64,000 bases of DNA from Eledone cirrhosa. Lineage: Eukaryota. Of the stretch, positions 4,791 to 25,409 are shown piece by piece. The notes under the pieces are model-generated. The model made no database searches. It was not told the DNA's origin and saw nothing but the letters and a program-made list of their open reading frames with translations. Where the stretch lies: contig OZ024740.1 of NCBI GenBank assembly GCA_964016885.1, positions 270,258,001-270,322,000 on the forward strand, given 5' to 3'. The position numbers were made by a program, and so were the translations under genes. Within the stretch, counting starts at the first letter, position 1. Each line of letters starts with the position of its first letter.

Positions 4791-5367
4791 ATTAGAGAGG
4801 TTTCCCAGTGCTATATTGCTATCTTTTGCTCTGGAAGCGGCTTGTTTTCCCACTCTTTCGTCATTTTGTTCTATGTGGTCTATGTGGTCTATGTCGCCGT
4901 TTTGGCTGTATTACAATACAGACAAGCAAGCAAGCAATCGCAGACTTTTAGTATTATATAGATGTATGGTACATATCATATTTTATACTTTTCTGCTCCT
5001 GTATTTACTCGTGTACTATGGAGGCTTTCTTTTCTGGGATAGTGCTGATTATATTATTAATCACAAATGTAGAATCAGTATTTACGCTCACATGAAAACA
5101 AAACTAAAATCATAATATTAAAGAACTAAAAAAATTAAGAACTAAAATAATTAAGAATATCTAATAATATGACTCAAGAGATTTTCATATTGTGACACGA
5201 GGGGTAATTAACGTATTTGTTAACGAAATTCATTGCAATTGTAGCAGTTTCCTTTTTTTTTCTTTTTCTTTTTTCTAGTGCAGTTCAGTGAACAACAAAA
5301 CAAAAGCTTCTAATGCTCTTGAAGGCAGAATCAAGAATGTACTTCGAAAATGGTGACAATGACATTT

Positions 5368-6226
5368 GGCGACCATAAACGAAGGAACGAAGGATTTTTC
5401 TAGAATACTTAAAACGAAACCTTATGAATGATGAAATTTTAAAATATCACCGTTGTTGACTTTTTCTGTGTTATCTTATAATGCCATTTCACTTCTCTGA
5501 GAAAATCGATGAAAAAAAAATGCCCTATCATTTCGTTTTGTTTTCAAATTCTAATCAAATCAATTTGCAGATTTTAATCGTTAACAACTCTAGGAGATTT
5601 TGTTGCTTGATGAAATCTGATAGTCTTTAAATATTTCAGCCACCATATTCAAAATGTACTCAAGTTGTTTTGGATGGGATCTTCGTGGGTCACTGAAAAA
5701 GTTAATTTTCTAATTGCTATAACACTGTTAATAAAGGTGTGTTGTTTTTATTTACGAAAATGCCACATTATTTTGATGCAGCACACTCTATTAACCGTGA
5801 TAAATTTCACAACTGATATTTCAATGCTGAAACTTAAGGTAATATTTGTAGTTTTAATGAATCAAGAAGTTTGTGGGTTTTTTTCTTTTGTCGTTATACA
5901 GCATGCAAATATAGACGTTAATAGCCGAATCGGCACAATAGTTTGGCAAATCCTCAAAGATCAAACCAAGATATATCTGAGAAAAATGTACATTATTTCC
6001 ATTACACATAAAGAGTATATTGATTAGAATAAAGAAAGAAATAGGTGTGTACATTGATATGTATATATAAAGGATGATAGCTATTTATGTCTGTAGCTAT
6101 TCATTTTCGTCGTATTTTATATACCTGTGTATCTATCTATATATGCAATTCGCGACCATAAACGAAGGAACGAAGGATTTTTCTAGAATACTTAAAACGA
6201 AACCTTATGAATGATGAAATTTTAAA
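5368..6226 (+). repeat. Dispersed direct repeat of about 75 bp (5368-5443 and 6152-6226)
   Basis: GCGACCATAAACGAAGGAACGAAGGATTTTTCTAGAATACTTAAAACGAAACCTTATGAATGATGAAATTTTAAA occurs twice. Confidence 0.85.
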
Positions 6227-6383
6227 GAAAAATATCTCAAATGTTCTGTATCTCTTTCTTTGCGCTATTCCATCCCCCTCTCTCTCTCTCTCTCTCTCTC
6301 TCTTATTATTATATATATATATATATACATATATACATGGTGGTGGTGGGGGGTGTCTTTCTGTCTGTGTATGAGTATACACG

Positions 6384-6422
<39 letters not shown>

Positions 6423-6463
6423 CGAGGGGGGGGGGTGCCTTTCTGTCTGTCTGCATATGAGTT

Positions 6464-6498
<35 letters not shown>

Positions 6499-6862
6499 GA
6501 TATACACATATCATTACCCACACGTAACCGCTTATTTACTAATAACGAATGTGTGCATTCTGTGATATAAGTTTGTATTTCTAACGTACAATTCTTATAA
6601 TATCATTGAGTAAGTGACAACCTGAGCTGAAAGTATTCTCTTCGACTTGCTAGATTACAAGACATTAACTAAATATATGTAACTATTAACACAGGCACAG
6701 AGATACAAAGTTGTTCTACACACTTTCATTCAAAATGCTTTGATCAATTCCAGATTAGAATAGAAGATATTTTACTTAGGTGCCTCTGAAAAAGACTGAA
6801 TCCTAAACCATGATGTAGCTGCAAAGCGAACTTCTTAACGTTTTTCTCTATATATATATATA

Positions 6863-11366: not shown

Positions 11367-12010
11367 AAACAATTAAGTTAAAAATGTACATCTACATATG
11401 CATACTGAAATACTAGTGTGTATATGAATATACACACGTATACATATGTAGGTGTAACAAGTCTTTCACTGGTTGCTTTACTGTGAGCAACCCAGCTATT
11501 CTGTATGTAAACACACAGACAAACCGGTTTTTAGAGTCATACTGGTTTTCGGGGGAACACCTTCCTCTATTCTCCAGAAAGCCAGACAAGGAATATTGAA
11601 CTAGTTTCGTTGTTGTTACAACTCATCAGCAATATTTACCTATCTACCGGCCCTTCTGGAGAATTGTAAAAGCACATATCGTTATATGCTTTTTCTATGA
11701 AAATTAGTAGTGGGCAGACTAATTTGCATAGAGTGTGAGTACGCACCGGTTCAGCGGAGACGATAAAAACAAATAACGAAACGAAATTAAATTTCGTTTC
11801 GTTTGTAACTCACTTTTGTATGACTGACGCTTAAACAATTAAGTTAAAAATGTACATCTACATATGCATACTGAAATACTAGTGTGTATATGAATACACA
11901 CACGTATACATATGTAGGTGTAACAAGTCTTTCACTGGTTACTTTACTGTGAGCAACCCAGCTATTCTGTATGTAAACACACAGACAAACCGGTTTTTAG
12001 AGTCATACTG
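11367..12010 (-). mobile_element. Family C non-coding element: 466-bp unit plus partial second copy, with one HHR (retrozyme-like or pseudo-LTR)
   Basis: 11367-11544 is repeated at 11833-12010; flanked by (TA)n; no ORF. Confidence 0.8.
11592..11636 (-). ncRNA. Minimal type I hammerhead ribozyme
   Basis: aatattg-CTGATGA-gttgt aaca acaac-GAAA-c ta g-TT-caatatt; 7-bp stem I; palindromic ACTAGT at stem III. Confidence 0.85.
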
Positions 12011-16135: not shown

Positions 16136-16181
16136 GCTGTACTGATGAAGGGTGATACCCAGAAACATTAGTGTCTGCAGT
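16136..16181 (+). ncRNA. Canonical type I hammerhead ribozyme
   Basis: gctgta-CTGATGA-a gggt gat accc a-GAAA-ca ttag tg-TC-tgcagt; predicted cut after C16175 (GUC). Confidence 0.88.
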
Positions 16182-16438
16182 TCTGTTTACATGCCAAAAC
16201 AAGAACAAGAATGAAGTGTTCATTCTACTGACATGGCTATAAAATTGAGGCTTGTTTGCATAATTGCAAACGAATCGAATGTTATTATTAATATTCGAAA
16301 AACTCAGATTACATTTATTGTATTCAGCCATATAGAGCGAAAATTTTCTTTTTTATTTGAATTTGGCAAAGCCGGCCATTTATCGCTCGTATGCAGGAAA
16401 TGTGACTGGCCAGTCTGCTGATATGCAAATCTGGTAAC

Positions 16439-16488
<50 letters not shown>

Positions 16489-17028
16489 AGTGTAATTTTC
16501 TACACAAAACGAAGGTTATAGAGAAAATTGAGGTTGGTAATGGCACATGGAATATATAAGAGACAGAATACTTTTTTGTGAAAAAACATATTTTTATAAG
16601 GTAAGGAAATAATAAAGGGTATAAAAAAATGACCGGTTTCGATGGGTCTGCAAAAGCCATCTTTTCAAATGTTGATTAATATTAAGAAAAATTAATAATA
16701 CGAAGAGTTAAAATTTGAGACTTGAAAATTCAAGTATAAAATTCATTGTGGGATTTCATAGCAGTTTTCATCTAAGTAGCAACAACAGGTTGACTGCTGT
16801 GTCCCTTTCTGGTAGTGAATGAGAAGTTATTTGGGGTGTGGGTTATTTTATAAAGGTCAGATTTAGCAATCACCAACTGGCCAGCTGCTGGTCAGTGAGG
16901 GGTGGAAGCAATATACATACACATATCTTCCTGTGATGGGTAGGAGAGTGGAGCGTGATAGAAAGGGATTTAGTGCACTTACACCTATATATACACACAT
17001 ACCTTCATCCACACATACATACATATAC

Positions 17029-17071
<43 letters not shown>

Positions 17072-17138
17072 CACACATACATACACACACACATACATAT
17101 ACATACACACACACACACACACACACATATATACACAT

Positions 17139-17189
<51 letters not shown>

Positions 17190-17228
17190 TATATATACAT
17201 ACACATACATCCAGATACACACATACAT

Positions 17229-17259
<31 letters not shown>

Positions 17260-17262
17260 CAC

Positions 17263-17300
<38 letters not shown>

Positions 17301-17468
17301 CCCCACACATACATACACACACACACACATATATATATACATACACACATACAAACATACACACACACACACATATATATACACACATACACACACATAT
17401 ATATACACACACACACACACACACGCATATATATATATATATACACATACGCATACATCCAGATACCC

Positions 17469-17499
<31 letters not shown>

Positions 17500-17699
17500 C
17501 AATACATACATCCACATGCACACACATACACACACACACACATATACACATACATACACCCACACACAGAGAAATGGCCTTCAAATATATATATATATAT
17601 ATATACATACAGACACATATATTTTTTCCATAATATAAGAAGTTGAGGCAGTGAAATTAAAATACAAGTCATTCTGATCACATTGAGTTCTTCATGTAG

Positions 17700-19730
17700 A
17701 AGGGAAGAAATAAAGCACTGGACACGTACTGCGAACACATCACCAACTTTCCCTATGAAAAAATTACAAATAAACACACGAAATCAAACCTATCTACACA
17801 CGAATGGGAAGAATTATTCACACTTAGAAACAACCCTGAGATAACTATCAAAGAAGCCGATAAAGGCAGTACTGTTGTCATTATGAATACGGACTACTAT
17901 AGGACCCTCGCACTTAACATTTTAGAAAACAACACATACTATGAAAAAACAGAAAACTACAAACACACCAAAACAATGGGGAACCTTTTGACCTTACTGA
18001 ATAAATACCGCAACAGCTTAACCACAAAAGAGTTTAACTATATAAGCCACTTCAAATGCAATACAAGCTCTTTTTACGGCTTACCGAAACTTCACAAATG
18101 TAAACCCATAAACGATGCATGTGACACCTCAACCAACAATTACATTGAACTAACACCACCAGAAGACCTAAAACTCAGGCCAATTATAGCAGGCCCTACA
18201 TGTGAAACCCACAGACTTAGCAACTTTCTGGACATCCTACTGAAACCCTTTCTACAACATATACAGAGCTACATACGAGATGACCTTGACATGCTGAAAC
18301 ACCTCCCTAAAACAGTAAGTGCAAATACAATTCTTGTCTCCTTTGACGTAATAAACCTCTACACAAACATACCTCACAACTATGGAATAACAGCAGTCCA
18401 ATACTGGCTTAACACACACCCATCAGAAATACCGACACGCATCAACACAGATTTTATCACTGACGGACTCCGCTTTATCCTACAAAATAACTACTTCACA
18501 TTCAATGGTTCAACATACAGACAAGTATCAGGTACGGCAATGGGCACGAAAGTAGCACCCACATATGCCAACCTAGTCATGGGATTCCATGAACAACAAA
18601 TATACAGTCAGTCCCTTCTCTTATTTGGAGACTCTTTCCACACACACCTCAAAGCCAATTGGAAAAGATATCTAGACGACTGCTTTATCCTATGGCAAGA
18701 AGACATGAACTCACTTACTACGTTTAAAAACATGATAAACAACATAGATAATAACATACAATTCACAATGGAATCCAATCCTAAGGAATTAGCCTTCTTG
18801 GATATTCTCATCTCTGTAATAGACGGGAAATTAGATACAGATATATTCTATAAACCCACAGATTCCAAGCAATACCTCTTTTTCACATCAAGTCACCCAA
18901 AACATACAAAACTTAACATTCCTTACAATTTGGCCAAACGTATATGTACCATAGTATCAGATCCACCTAAACGGGAGCAAAGACTAAAGGAACTAAAAGA
19001 CACCCTTATCTTAAGAGCCTTTCCACTTGAAATAATCAACAATGGAATAGACAGGGCAAAACACCTAAATCCCCATCAACTTAACAATCCAAAACAGAAA
19101 ACCACACTCAACACCCTGCCATATGTATCCACTTTCAACCCCAGAAATACCGAAATGTTTGATCACCTACACAAAAACCTCCCCATCCTACTTAAAGATG
19201 TAAAAATGAAGTCTATTCTTGAAACACACAAGATCCTTAAAAGTAAAAGACAACCCAAATCACTTAAACGCATTCTCACTGGACCAAATATACCCAAACC
19301 AATCCTCAACCCTACAGTTACCAAATGTGGTAGAACAAACTGTGGAACGTGCCTCTACCTCACTGAAGGACAAACATTTACATTCAAAGATGGCCAAACA
19401 TTTACAGTAAAAAACAATTTCACCTGCAACTCGGAGAACTTGATTTACGCAATAACTTGCGGTGGGTGCAAACACAACTACATAGGACAGACGGGCACCT
19501 CATTACGCAAAAGAATGACCATCCACCGCCAGCAAATCCGGGACGCTAACACAAGAAAAATGCCCTTGAGCAGCCATATTGCGAACTGCGCAGGAATGAC
19601 ACTACCCAACTTTAAAATCTTCCCCTTCTACAAGTGCTCAGATTCGTTCACACAACAACAAAGAATAAACAAAGAAAATCTATTCCTTAACAAATTTAAA
19701 CCAAAACTAAACGGGTTATCACCCCAATAG
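17700..19730 (+). CDS. Penelope-type reverse transcriptase / GIY-YIG endonuclease (first ATG at 17883; frame open from the truncation junction)
   Basis: IKEADKGSTVVIM, YGLPKLHK, RPII, SFDVINLYTNI, GTAMGT, RYLDDCF, FLD, CGRTNCGTC, NLIYAITC, YIGQT; no stop codon between 17700 and 19727. Confidence 0.95.
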   Translation, partial: KGRNKALDTYCEHITNFPYEKITNKHTKSNLSTHEWEELFTLRNNPEITIKEADKGSTVVIMNTDYYRTLALNILENNTYYEKTENYKHTKTMGNLLTLLNKYRNSLTTKEFNYISHFKCNTSSFYGLPKLHKCKPINDACDTSTNNYIELTPPEDLKLRPIIAGPTCETHRLSNFLDILLKPFLQHIQSYIRDDLDMLKHLPKTVSANTILVSFDVINLYTNIPHNYGITAVQYWLNTHPSEIPTRINTDFITDGLRFILQNNYFTFNGSTYRQVSGTAMGTKVAPTYANLVMGFHEQQIYSQSLLLFGDSFHTHLKANWKRYLDDCFILWQEDMNSLTTFKNMINNIDNNIQFTMESNPKELAFLDILISVIDGKLDTDIFYKPTDSKQYLFFTSSHPKHTKLNIPYNLAKRICTIVSDPPKREQRLKELKDTLILRAFPLEIINNGIDRAKHLNPHQLNNPKQKTTLNTLPYVSTFNPRNTEMFDHLHKNLPILLKDVKMKSILETHKILKSKRQPKSLKRILTGPNIPKPILNPTVTKCGRTNCGTCLYLTEGQTFTFKDGQTFTVKNNFTCNSENLIYAITCGGCKHNYIGQTGTSLRKRMTIHRQQIRDANTRKMPLSSHIANCAGMTLPNFKIFPFYKCSDSFTQQQRINKENLFLNKFKPKLNGLSPQ

Positions 19731-20201
19731 AATTGTCATAAAATATAAACACACATACGCACGGAATCACTACTATTAAAGACCAGAGACCAATTCTGTA
19801 GAATCAGGTTTATTCATTGACAGACCATGCCTTTGTGTGACCAACACATCCATGTTAAACCCTGCACGTGCACACACATATATCTATATATATATGCGCA
19901 CACAGAATTCACCACTGTCGGTTGCGGGGCCCAATCTACATGAAGAACTCAATGTGATCAGAATGACTTGTATTTTAATTTCACTGCCCCAACTTCTTAT
20001 ATTATGGAAAAAATATATGTGTCTGTATGTATATATATATATATATATGCGTGTGTGTGTGTGTATATATATATGTGTGTGTATGTGTGTATATATATGT
20101 GTGTGTGTGTGTATGTTTGTATGTGTGTATGTATATATATATATGTGTGTGTGTGTATGTATGTGTGGGGGTGTGTGTATATATATATATATATATATGT
20201 G

Positions 20202-20232
<31 letters not shown>

Positions 20233-20377
20233 ATGTATATGTGTATCTGGATGTATGTGTATGTATATATATGTGTGTGTGTGTGTATATATATATATAT
20301 GTGTGTGTGTGTATGTGTATATATGTGTGTGTGTGTATGTGTGTATGTATATGTATGTGTGTGTGTATGTATGTGTG

Positions 20378-20418
<41 letters not shown>

Positions 20419-20777
20419 GTATATGTATGTATGTGTGGATGAAGGTATGTGTGTGTATATATAGGTGTAAGTGCACTAAATCCCTTTCTATCACGCTCCA
20501 CTCTCCTACCCATCACAGGAAGATATATGTATGTATATTGCTTCCACCCCCTCACTGACCAGCAGCTGGCCAGTTGGTGATTGCTAAATCTGACCTTTAT
20601 AAAATAACCCACACCCCCAAATAACTTCTCATTCACTACCAGAAAGGGACACAGCAGTCAATCTGTTGTTGCTACCTAGATGAAAACTGCTATAAAATCC
20701 CACAATGAATTTTATACTTGAATTTTCAAGTCTCAAATTTTAACTCTTCGTATTATTAATTTTTCTTAATATTAATC

Positions 20778-20825
20778 AACATTTGAAAAGATGGCTTTTG
20801 CAGACCCATCGAAACCGGTCATTTT
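20778..20825 (+). ncRNA. Minimal hammerhead ribozyme with U3-A8 core variant (mirror copy at 16626-16673, minus strand)
   Basis: aacat-TTGAAAA-gatgg..ccatc-GAAA-c cg g-TC-atttt; palindromic ACCGGT at stem III; identical in both pseudo-LTRs. Confidence 0.7.
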
Positions 20826-20922
20826 TTATACCCTTTATTATTTCCTTACCTTATAAAATTATGTTTTTTCACAAAAAAGTATTCTGTCTCTTATATATTC
20901 CATGTGCCATTACCAACCTCAA

Positions 20923-20996
<74 letters not shown>

Positions 20997-22633: not shown

Positions 22634-23456
22634 TGTTTCTACTTTTGGCACAAGGACAGCAATTACCTCAATGCATTACTGGTACTTTATTTTATCGACC
22701 TCGTAAGGATGAAAGGCAAAGTTAACCTCGGCGAGATTTGAACTCAGAACGTAAAGGGTCATAACTCTATGCCGCAAAGCATGCTGTCTGACGCTCTACC
22801 GTTATAGCTAAAACACCGCCTTAAGTAAAGTAATAATGGTTTCTTATATAGGCACAAGGCCAGCAATTTTGTGAGAGGGGAAAGTCGATTAAATCGACCC
22901 CAGTACGTGACTGTTACTTATTTTATCGACCCCCTAAGGATGAAAGGCAAAGTTAACCTCGGCGGCATTTGAACTCAGATCGTTAAGGGCCGTAACTCTA
23001 TGCTGGGAAGCACGGTGTCTGACCCCCTACCATTACTGCCTAACCACCACCCTAAGTAAAGTAATAATTGTTTCTACTTTAGGCATAAGGCCAGCAATTA
23101 ATCAGTACATTACTGGTATATTTTATCGACCCCGTAAGGATGAAAGGCAAAGTCAACCTCGGCGGGATTTGAACTCAGATCGTAAAGGGACGTAACTATG
23201 CTGGAAAGCATGGCGTCCGACCCTCTAGCGATACTGCCATGGTTTCTTATATAGGCACAAGGTCAGAAATTTTGGGAGAGGGGAAAGTCGATTAAATCGA
23301 CCCCAGTTCGTGACTGGTACTTTATTTTATCGACCCCGTAAGGATGAAAGGCAAAGTTAACCTAGGCGGGATTTGAACTCGGATCATAAAGGGCTGTAAC
23401 TCTATGCTGCAAAGCATGGTGTCTGACGCTCTACCGATACTGCCAATCCACCGCCC
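22634..23456 (-). mobile_element. Head-to-tail array of four S1 SINEs
   Basis: Four copies of TCGACC(C/T)C(G/C)TAAGGATGAAAGGCAAAG..TTTGAACTC; spacer TAAGTAAAGTAATAAT recurs. Confidence 0.9.
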
Positions 23457-25409
23457 TTTTTAAGTAAAGTAATAATGAAGACTTAACAAGAGTGGTTAGT
23501 GTAATGACATATCCATATTCTTGCAGCTACATATATGTATATGTGGGTGCTACATGTCTTAGAGTAACCTGGGTGGTTAGTTCAATCTTGACAAGTTTAA
23601 TCTAGTTTAGTTTAACCCATGGTTTAGACAGACATCGAACACGTTTAGATATTTTGTGGAATGACTGAGAAACGAAAATTGAGAGGCGACGGTGAAATTG
23701 TTTACAAGGCGAATATCAAGGAGGTGTTGGGTGAAGCAACCTGACAACAGAGTTCCCCTCGGGTTGATGTAAAGGGCGGGCAACAATGGGTATTGGAGAC
23801 AGAAGATGAGATCAGCTAAAGTACAACTTAATTAATTCGAAGCGTGGAAAGTGTGACTAACGGTATGGGAGCCATGTTGGGACGTTGTTGGGGGAATTTA
23901 GATGTGGAGAAAAAGAACTGTTAACCAAGATGTCACGAGGGTTGCAGGTGCGCTTGAAAGAAAATCGAGATGGGGTAGAGTTGGAGGTTGGTGGAATTTG
24001 ATTAGTGTAGGTAGAATGCATGCATGATCTTATGACGAATGGGTAAAATTGAAGGAGTGCGAGGTAAGAGAAATGAGGGTCTCTATTGTGTTAGCACCAT
24101 ATTGCTGTGTTTTGAAGCATGGTTTACCAATAAGCCGTATTTAGGAAGGTGTAGATACATTCTGGTTCTAATGAGCTTTTGGCATGGCCGCCATGGCAAT
24201 CCTTTCCCTAGATAGCATTTTGATGTTTTAGCAGTGATGTTATGTTTTATGGAAATATAGTACCTTACAAACATTTTTGGTGAGGTATGCAGGACATGAA
24301 CTATAACGCCTACACTAGGCTTTTGGAAGACGTTCTTAACTCCTCTATTGATAAGGTTTTTAGAGGTTATCTTCTATTCTGGAACAGTGAATGAGTATCC
24401 TTCTATGAAAAATGTGATATATCTATTTCAGGTCCAGAAGATGATAATCTTTCTCTGAAAACTGTTAATATCCACAAGCTTGCGGGATATGTTTCCAAGC
24501 ATTATTTTTCGTTGGTATCATGAATGCTTATCCTGCAATATTTTTGTTGTTGTTTTTTAAGTAGGATAGTCCAGCTAACTTTGGGAGGTAGAGCATATTT
24601 ATAGACTGAGTATTTGTTCAAGTGGTCTTTGCATTCTTTCAATATGCTATTGTCAGAACTTTAAATGAAAACTGGGAAAATACAGGAATTGAATTAATGA
24701 GAAACGCCTTTTCTTATATTTGAAGAAAAATTTCGAAAGAGACATTAACAATTTTGAGATGTATTACAATTTCTGTGATTTATTAAAATGTTCTAAGCGC
24801 AATTGTGTTGTAAGCATTCTGAATGGGTTGAAAGCTGCTATTATTTATTGGTAAAGTTTTCTTTCACTGACAGTCTTACTGCAGTTTTCGATTAGCAATA
24901 AAATTAAATACTTGATTTGAAATGTGTTAGTCCTGTAAAAAGACATACATGATACCATGCCTGTACAGCAAAATTAATATCGATCTGAAGATAAAAGAAT
25001 CTGCTAAGGAGAACACAATTGATAAATATAAAATCAAGAAAGAAGAACGTAGTCCAACTTTTACAAAGCGTTTTCTAAAACGTTTTGAAGGCAGATAACT
25101 TGAATGAATAAGAATATTTTTAAGGAGAAACCAAATTGAAATTTATAGGTCGGGATTTCGATTCTCGTTTGTAGACAGTTATCTTAAACCTTCTGCTGAG
25201 AGACAGATGCGTAAAGCTATATCTAGATCTATTTGAAGAAATATAAACATCTATAGTAGAAAATATAGAATTACAATTATACATCTAATCTGATTGAATT
25301 CGCTATATGTTTATATAAAGTTAAACAAGGTTGATCGAAATGCAACTTCTCTAAGTGTGAGTCAAATTTGATTCGATTGAATTTTCATTTTGATTTAGCG
25401 ATTTTGTTT

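What the first reader, a model, noticed from the sequence alone, without database searches (positions are those of the whole stretch)
20778..20825. The coding Penelope element carries a hammerhead with a compensatory U3-A8 core (UUGAAAA instead of CUGANGA)
Seen in sequence: both pseudo-LTRs read TTGAAAA-gatgg..ccatc-GAAA-ccg-GTC, with intact stem II, a palindromic stem III and a GUC site. The only core changes are C3>U and G8>A. Established knowledge: positions 3 and 8 form a Watson-Crick tertiary pair in the active hammerhead, and U3-A8 is a rare natural covariant. Inference: this is a selected functional variant rather than decay, and standard CUGANGA searches would miss it.
Basis: partly seen in the sequence, partly recalled or inferred. 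Interest (0 to 1): 0.8.

Follow-up and report, generated by a model that had tools for sequence, protein, structure and literature searches.

The report
Penelope hammerhead with U-A core pair
About 2,000 copies of a young jumping gene carry a small RNA motif that likely cuts itself and has a U-A pair where most such motifs have C-G; the swap is real and recurs across related elements, but it was already published for this class of element.

Summary
UUGAAAA, a 5-bp stem II, GAAA, the ACCGGU palindrome and GUC are present at 20783-20820 and, inverted, at 16631-16668. It is not a private double mutant: 1,990 of 1,998 genome copies with this stem II are U3-A8 and none is C3-G8. Three related Penelope families (endonuclease-RT 45-68% identical) and a retrozyme family also carry U3-A8. 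Among 33 hammerheads beside related elements from other organisms, positions 3 and 8 always form a Watson-Crick pair (25 C-G, 6 U-A, 1 G-C, 1 A-U), and U-A arose repeatedly. Selection therefore likely keeps the pair; nothing shows U-A is better, and it tends to sit in AT-rich elements. Corrections: the two window copies are not independent, the element is 5'-truncated, and stem I has only 2 bp, with a competing fold predicted. Cleavage was not tested. U3-A8 hammerheads in Penelope elements, with this exact UUGAAAA core, were published in 2014 (PMC4209133), and this scan noted them in two other genomes. Side finding: full-length copies have an upstream ORF joined by a conserved U UUU UUA site, likely a -1 frameshift. 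Verdict: new member of a known kind.

The parts
20783..20789 (+). Hammerhead core positions 3-9, UUGAAAA (U3 at 20783, A8 at 20788)
20790..20810 (+). Stem II (5 bp, G10.1-C11.1 first) with an 11-nt loop
20811..20820 (+). GAAA, palindromic stem III (ACCGGU) and GUC triplet; predicted cut after 20820
   Evidence: the cut site is inferred from the hammerhead consensus
20781..20822 (+). Stem I, 2 bp only (20781-20782 with 20821-20822), then a C.U mismatch; same short stem in sister family D
16631..16668 (-). Second, inverted copy of the same hammerhead
17700..19730 (+). 5'-truncated RT plus GIY-YIG-type endonuclease frame, 676 aa open: DKG, YLDD, CX4CXXC linker, YIG
19731..20929 (+). 3' untranslated part and direct pseudo-LTR with an internal TG/TA microsatellite; ends 109 nt past the GUC in (TC)n(TA)n
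16480..17700 (-). Inverted 5'-truncated pseudo-LTR copy; ends 151 nt past the GUC (42-nt tail) in (TA)n

Best explanation
This is a Penelope-type minimal hammerhead motif whose 3-8 pair is U-A in nearly all copies of a young family, and it likely works as a weak, dimer- or protein-assisted self-cleaving ribozyme kept by selection on the pairing rather than on U-A itself. Shown: the motif, its fixation, its conservation across four families of one clade, repeated independent C-G/U-A switches, and insertion ends 109-151 nt downstream of the GUC. Inferred: U3 pairs with A8 as C3 does with G8 in the active fold; the ACCGGU palindrome lets two copies share stem III; the 2-bp stem I and a competing hairpin keep most transcripts uncut, so reverse transcription can start downstream of the site; AT pressure drove the C-G to U-A swap.
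For: Family A: U3-A8 1,990, U3-G8 1, U3-C8 1, U3-U8 2, C3-A8 1, A3-A8 3 (all three at junctions), C3-G8 0, of 1,998. Sister family D: 87 of the first 100 of 379 matches are U3-A8 (2 of them family A variants), none C3-G8. Families B and F are also U3-A8. A, D, F and B form one clade (SH-aLRT 100) next to a C3-G8 relative with the same CCGG stem III. Across them stem II, N7, H17 and stem I change while the core stays. Outside this genome, 33 of 33 retained hammerheads have a Watson-Crick 3-8 pair. U-A needs 8 changes on the tree, at least 6 forced by well-supported branches, and is rejected as one clade (AU p 3e-39). Position 8 follows position 3 in 5 of 5 independent pairs. An unrelated retrozyme lineage holds both C3-G8 and U3-A8. 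All 42 scored 3' ends lie at +109 to +112 or +151. In a tested Penelope-like element the hammerhead needs the protein, depends on 3-8 pairing, and uncut RNA is the main template (PMC11167929).
Against: No cleavage assay. Stem I is 2 bp; the hammerhead stems of family A score +0.4 kcal/mol against -9.0 for a fold that pairs the core A-run with the cut site, and the shared-stem-III dimer (-18.5) loses to an alternative dimer (-24.1). Genome copy counts are descent from a few masters, not independent tests. The independent-pairs test cannot reach significance with 5 pairs (p 0.0625). The tree is the quick one and holds a long branch. 54 of 87 outside loci gave no retained hammerhead, and 4 antisense hits were dropped, 3 of them mismatched at 3-8. 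The 2014 supplement lists one Penelope hammerhead with U3-G8 (Saccoglossus). The AT trend is modest and not corrected for kinship (p about 0.03).
Confidence: 0.72

Rival explanations
1. U3-A8 was inherited from a working ancestor, but in families A and D the motif no longer cleaves; it is kept as a protein-binding or structural signal, or carried along.
For: 2-bp stem I in A and D; predicted pairing probability near 0 for stem I and 0.03-0.09 for stem II, against 0.2 and 0.87 in family B. Hammerhead mutants did not affect insertion in vitro in another element (PMC11167929). No insertion ends at the cut site (0 of 42).
Against: Every catalytic position stays fixed between A and D (about 77% nucleotide identity over the ORF) while the loop, N7 and H17 change within their allowed sets. 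Active Drosophila virilis Penelope also has a 2-bp helix I (PMC4209133).
Confidence: 0.15
2. U3-A8 was positively selected to slow the ribozyme, so that enough uncut RNA remains for reverse transcription to start downstream of the cut site.
For: The U-A clade includes the most numerous matches to the patterns searched in this genome (about 17,000, mostly family B). All 3' ends lie downstream of the site. In family A the core A-run takes part in the competing fold.
Against: C3-G8 elements also start reverse transcription downstream of an uncut site (PMC11167929). U-A goes with AT-rich elements. The tandem retrozyme family C, which would be expected to need cleavage, also has U-A. The competing fold is not the same in D, B or F.
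Confidence: 0.11
3. The window copy is a decayed, private double mutant of a CUGAAGA family.
For: None found.
Against: 0 of 1,998 copies with this stem II are C3-G8; the 40 best-scored genome matches are 100% identical over 211 nt.
Confidence: 0.01

Closest known systems
U3-A8 minimal hammerheads of Schistosoma mansoni Cercyon Penelope-like elements (Cervera and De la Pena 2014, PMC4209133; main text parts 1-2 of 4 and supplement file 2 part 2 read)
   Same: Type I hammerhead in the pseudo-LTR, U3-A8 core (one listed example has the same UUGAAAA), G10.1-C11.1, palindromic stem III, over a thousand copies.
   Different: Here there is no extra base between 9 and 10.1, stem III has a 2-nt palindromic loop, stem I is 2 bp, the family is young and homogeneous, and the element is a two-ORF Neptune/Nematis-like type.
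Drosophila virilis Penelope hammerhead (PMC4209133)
   Same: 2-bp helix I, small palindromic helix III, many identical copies in an active family.
   Different: C3-G8 core, bulged stem II, intron end at helix I, single ORF.
Poseidon element PAc of Anolis (Frangieh et al. 2024, PMC11167929; passages and section 3 part 2 read)
   Same: Two reverse-transcription start sites downstream of the hammerhead, giving a tail of about 40 nt; AT-rich targets; 3-8 pairing matters for cleavage.
   Different: C3-G8; its ORF starts inside the hammerhead. Here ORF1 starts 174 nt past the cut site, and activity is untested.
Natural U3-A8 hammerheads (Perreault et al. 2011, PMC3088659; passages read)
   Same: Same covariation, stated there to be active in vitro.
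   Different: Described as rare examples; here it is the fixed state of a whole element clade.

Membership tests
Type I hammerhead ribozyme | Core U4 G5 A6 N7, A9, G12 A13 A14, A15.1-U16.1, H17 | tested here: met
Type I hammerhead ribozyme | Watson-Crick pair between positions 3 and 8 | tested here: met
   U3-A8 by sequence; covariation across lineages. The tertiary pair itself is taken from the literature (PMC3884650 passages).
Type I hammerhead ribozyme | Stem II closed by G10.1-C11.1 | tested here: met
   5 bp; differing but still paired stems in families B, D, F
Type I hammerhead ribozyme | Stem I flanking the cut site | tested here: inconclusive
   Only 2 bp; not in the predicted fold; 4 bp in families B and F
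Type I hammerhead ribozyme | Self-cleavage after H17 | not testable with these tools
   Needs an assay
Rfam hammerhead models | Match at E up to 1 | tested here: not met
   No match at 20783 or 16668; the canonical motif at 11576-11647 matched HH9 at 38.6 bits, below its gathering score of 52
Penelope-element minimal hammerhead | Lies in the pseudo-LTR; palindromic short stem III | tested here: met
Penelope-element minimal hammerhead | [quoted passage not shown] | tested here: not met
   A9 is followed directly by G10.1; the same holds for near relatives L273, L274 and L349
EN+ Penelope-like element | [quoted passage not shown] | tested here: met
   RVT_1 E 3.5e-07; homologs of equal length carry PF00078 and PF01541; the GIY-YIG profile did not hit this protein itself
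EN+ Penelope-like element | Direct or inverted pseudo-LTRs and a 30-40 nt tail | tested here: met
   Direct repeats 4.7-4.9 kb apart in 6 of 6 fetched loci; ends at +109 to +112 and +151
EN+ Penelope-like element | Single ORF (canonical description) | tested here: not met
   Two overlapping ORFs in full-length copies
Neptune/Nematis clades | CX2-5CXXC linker before the endonuclease; (TA)n targets | tested here: met
   CGRTNCGTC at residue 543; ends in (TA)n or (TC)n; definition from PMC8557442
Neptune/Nematis clades | Placement with named reference elements in an RT tree | not tested
   No named references in the tree

The most novel reading that the evidence does not exclude
Penelope hammerheads sample all four Watson-Crick pairs at 3-8 in nature (including A3-U8 in L296 and G3-C8 in L291), and this two-ORF, frameshifting clade has turned its U3-A8 hammerhead into an off-by-default switch: a 2-bp stem I and a hairpin that buries the cut site keep the RNA whole until the element's own protein refolds it.
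Probability: 0.2. Interest if true: 0.6.

Novelty: new member of a known kind. Interest (0 to 1): 0.33.

Why it matters
What Penelope hammerheads do is still open. Finding that the tertiary 3-8 pair is kept through repeated double changes argues that these weak motifs are under selection for the catalytic fold. The young family A gives a clean test case: about 2,000 near-identical copies, with natural C-G and U-A relatives. In practical terms, a CUGANGA search would miss over 19,000 motifs in this genome while the matching C3-G8 pattern finds 9,769. The U3-A8 variant itself is in print, which limits the surprise.

Tried and rejected
Run search for RNA: no RNA holder listed. Contigs of four runs were laid on the stretch: no other letter was listed at 20783 or 20788, but contigs cannot show cut ends and the two other organisms have only 3 records each, so nothing is drawn from them. 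I first took family D for a C3-G8 sister, from its hits in the mismatch lists; one search showed it is U3-A8. I considered reading the core as CUGAAGA plus an AA insertion and rejected it, because GAUGG/CCAUC forms a full stem II and D has UUGAUAA in the same frame. A claim that U3-A8 is the commonest hammerhead of the genome overall is not made: the patterns covered one architecture, and several C3-G8 families of other shapes turned up in flanks. A single origin of U-A within retrozyme lineage C could not be rejected (p-AU 0.175); its C3-G8 member is a single copy. For own-genome C3-G8 elements K, N and O the link between hammerhead and ORF is adjacency only (no second copy). The Fisher table was entered one count off and is not used. 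The careful tree did not finish; the quick tree is used. Pfam gave no credible family for ORF1. A search for old low-copy U3-A8 families gave 83 matches, below its control of 272, mostly decayed copies of A-D. Three papers were not held (Lunse 2017, Przybilski and Hammann 2007, Arkhipova 2017), so what they report on 3-8 variants and frameshifts was not seen.

Full report
Observation. The window reads UUGAAAA (20783-20789), a 5-bp stem II with an 11-nt loop (20790-20810), GAAA, the palindrome ACCGGU and GUC (20818-20820). The same motif lies on the minus strand at 16668-16631. A generic descriptor gives 3 hits in the window and 0.015 per shuffle. Rfam at E up to 1 did not report either copy, though it found a canonical hammerhead at 11576-11647. 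Stem I is only 2 bp, followed by C.U.

The element. An open frame at 17700-19730 encodes RT (RVT_1), a CX4CXXC linker and a GIY-YIG-type endonuclease; 748 public proteins are homologous. It is flanked by a direct pseudo-LTR (to 20929) and an inverted one (16480-17700), the arrangement described for Penelope-like elements (PMC8557442 passages). The two hammerheads come from one insertion. Six fetched loci with direct repeats give a unit of 4.7-4.9 kb with two ORFs. The window copy begins at residue 83 of the second ORF. The linker motif and (TA)n targets point to the Neptune/Nematis type; no named references were in the tree. The host is an unnamed 3.0-Gb animal genome.

Is U3-A8 the family state? 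Yes. With stem II and A7 fixed, 1,994 copies have U3, 4 of which lack A8, and 4 copies lack U3. This gives U3-A8 1,990, U3-G8 1, U3-C8 1, U3-U8 2, C3-A8 1, A3-A8 3 and C3-G8 0, of 1,998. The 40 best of 778 candidates are identical over 211 nt, so the family is young. These counts refute a private double mutant but reflect descent, not selection.

Related families in the genome. A generic pattern with a C-NN-G stem III gave U3-A8 17,133 (control 296; matches starting G-A excluded; 93 of the first 100 are family B), C3-G8 9,769 (control 217; the first 100 all a tandem retrozyme; 184 remain without it), C3-A8 218 (control 48) and U3-G8 226 (control 71). Family D, the older sister of A, gave 379 matches; of the first 100, 87 are U3-A8, 5 U3-G8, 4 U3-C8, 2 C3-A8, 2 G3-A8 and none C3-G8. 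It has the same 2-bp stem I. Family F is also U3-A8. RT-EN identity to A is 68% (D), 58% (F) and 45% (B). Across these families stem II, loop, N7, H17 and stem I differ while the catalytic positions stay. A 316-bp tandem retrozyme family, C, has 543 matches; the first 100 are A8 and 30 of 30 loci are U3. Its homologs carry U3-A8 or C3-G8, which needs at least one switch; a single origin is not rejected (p-AU 0.175).

Covariation outside the genome. An alignment of 46 proteins fetched 87 loci from metagenome and genome contigs. A descriptor free at positions 3 and 8 found hammerheads in 36 loci. I dropped 4 antisense hits (L307, L341 and L343 inside the ORF; one in L355, which keeps its sense copies), 3 of them mismatched; the reversed control gave 2 mismatched hits. 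The 33 retained loci are C-G 25, U-A 6, G-C 1 and A-U 1, with no mismatch; three are near-duplicates. On a quick RT tree of 41 rows U-A needs 8 changes, at least 6 forced by starred branches. A, D, F and B form one clade (100) beside L277, a C3-G8 element with the same CCGG stem III. U-A as one clade is rejected (AU p 3e-39). Position 8 follows position 3 in 5 of 5 independent pairs (p 0.0625, the least possible for 5). U-A and A-U loci are AT-richer than C-G and G-C loci (flank G+C median 0.31 vs 0.34, locus 0.30 vs 0.38; 7 vs 23 loci; p about 0.03, kinship ignored). Against strict pairing, the 2014 supplement lists one U3-G8 example.

How it likely works. In the active hammerhead C3 pairs with G8 (PMC3884650 passages), and U3-A8 is stated to be active in vitro (PMC3088659 passages). 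The palindromic stem III is the dimer design proposed for Penelope hammerheads, whose activity in vitro is low (PMC4209133). For family A the hammerhead stems score +0.4 kcal/mol against -9.0 for a hairpin that pairs the core with the cut site (z -0.71), and the shared-stem dimer (-18.5) loses to another dimer (-24.1). All 42 scored 3' ends lie downstream of the GUC: 20 at +109 to +112 and 22 at +151; 6 further copies run on into ORF1. The template was therefore uncut at its 3' hammerhead, or circular. This matches the Anolis element, where the hammerhead cuts only with protein, needs 3-8 pairing, and uncut RNA is the main template (PMC11167929). I infer a weak, assisted ribozyme that occasionally yields unit-length RNA with a 5' end 174 nt before the ORF1 start. 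Selection keeps the pair, and AT pressure likely chose U-A. Cleavage is not shown.

What is known. U3-A8 in Penelope hammerheads was reported in 2014 (about 1,300 hits in S. mansoni), and the supplement lists a UUGAAAA core (supplement file 1 could not be searched). Natural U3-A8 was reported in 2011. This scan noted it in two other genomes. Searches for natural A3-U8 or G3-C8 returned only an engineered G3-C8 mention, and a search for cephalopod Penelope hammerheads listed three papers, none on this topic by title; three key papers were not held, so absence from print is not established.

Side finding. In 5 of 6 full-length A loci, and in 2 of 2 B loci examined, U UUU UUA lies in the ORF1 frame where the -1 frame opens into RT-EN. 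Among 43 outside loci examined, 10 close relatives (31-54% identity) have U UUU UUA or U UUU UUG in register with no Met before the RT match; two other close ones (L314, L340) do not. Looser slippery-like words are common in either frame (29 vs 21 of 43), so only this specific site counts. That this heptamer causes -1 frameshifting is recalled knowledge. A review describes EN+ elements as single-ORF (PMC6431247), but a figure legend allows a frameshifted ORF1 without naming the clade, and this scan noted it in another genome.

Verdict. A real, fixed and covarying U3-A8 hammerhead core, already known for this class of element: new member of a known kind, interest 0.33.

Noticed in passing
L043 (minus strand, ORF1 5316-6578), L044:4036-4100, L356, L358, L269-L271, L274-L279, L349: Full-length elements of this clade have an ORF1 of about 420 aa overlapping the RT-EN frame, with a conserved in-register U UUU UUA (or UUG) heptamer: a likely programmed -1 frameshift in an endonuclease-bearing Penelope element.
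   Followed up: partly
L296:1969 and L291:117: Hammerheads with A3-U8 and G3-C8 cores and good stems I-III in pseudo-LTR positions; one contig each.
   Followed up: partly
window 11576-11647 (-): Canonical C3-G8 type I hammerhead of a tandem retrozyme family (466-470 bp unit, about 9,600 pattern matches); many copies have U at position 17.
   Followed up: partly
window 16142-16190 (+): A C3-G8 hammerhead of another family, about 300 nt outside the inverted pseudo-LTR; also seen in L177, L365 and L370.
   Followed up: partly
L045-L072, L356: Family B: roughly 16,000 U3-A8 hammerheads with a 4-bp stem I, mostly in short inverted pairs; the largest family found.
   Followed up: partly
L129-L158, L200, L358, L367, L159, L373: 316-bp retrozyme lineage whose subfamilies rewrite stems I-III with compensatory changes; stem III is long enough to fold as a monomer.
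   Followed up: partly
L111, L114, L173-L175: A repeated C3-A8 hammerhead-like motif with a poor stem I, seen 8 times in the first 100; it may be a chance look-alike in another repeat.
   Followed up: no
window 19970-20460: The pseudo-LTR carries a long internal TG/TA microsatellite that differs between the two copies of the same insertion.
   Followed up: no
window 22634-23503: A cluster of 3-4 diverged copies of a short interspersed repeat.
   Followed up: no
L349-L355: Penelope-like RT-EN elements sit in bacterial genome bins, likely as host contamination.
   Followed up: no
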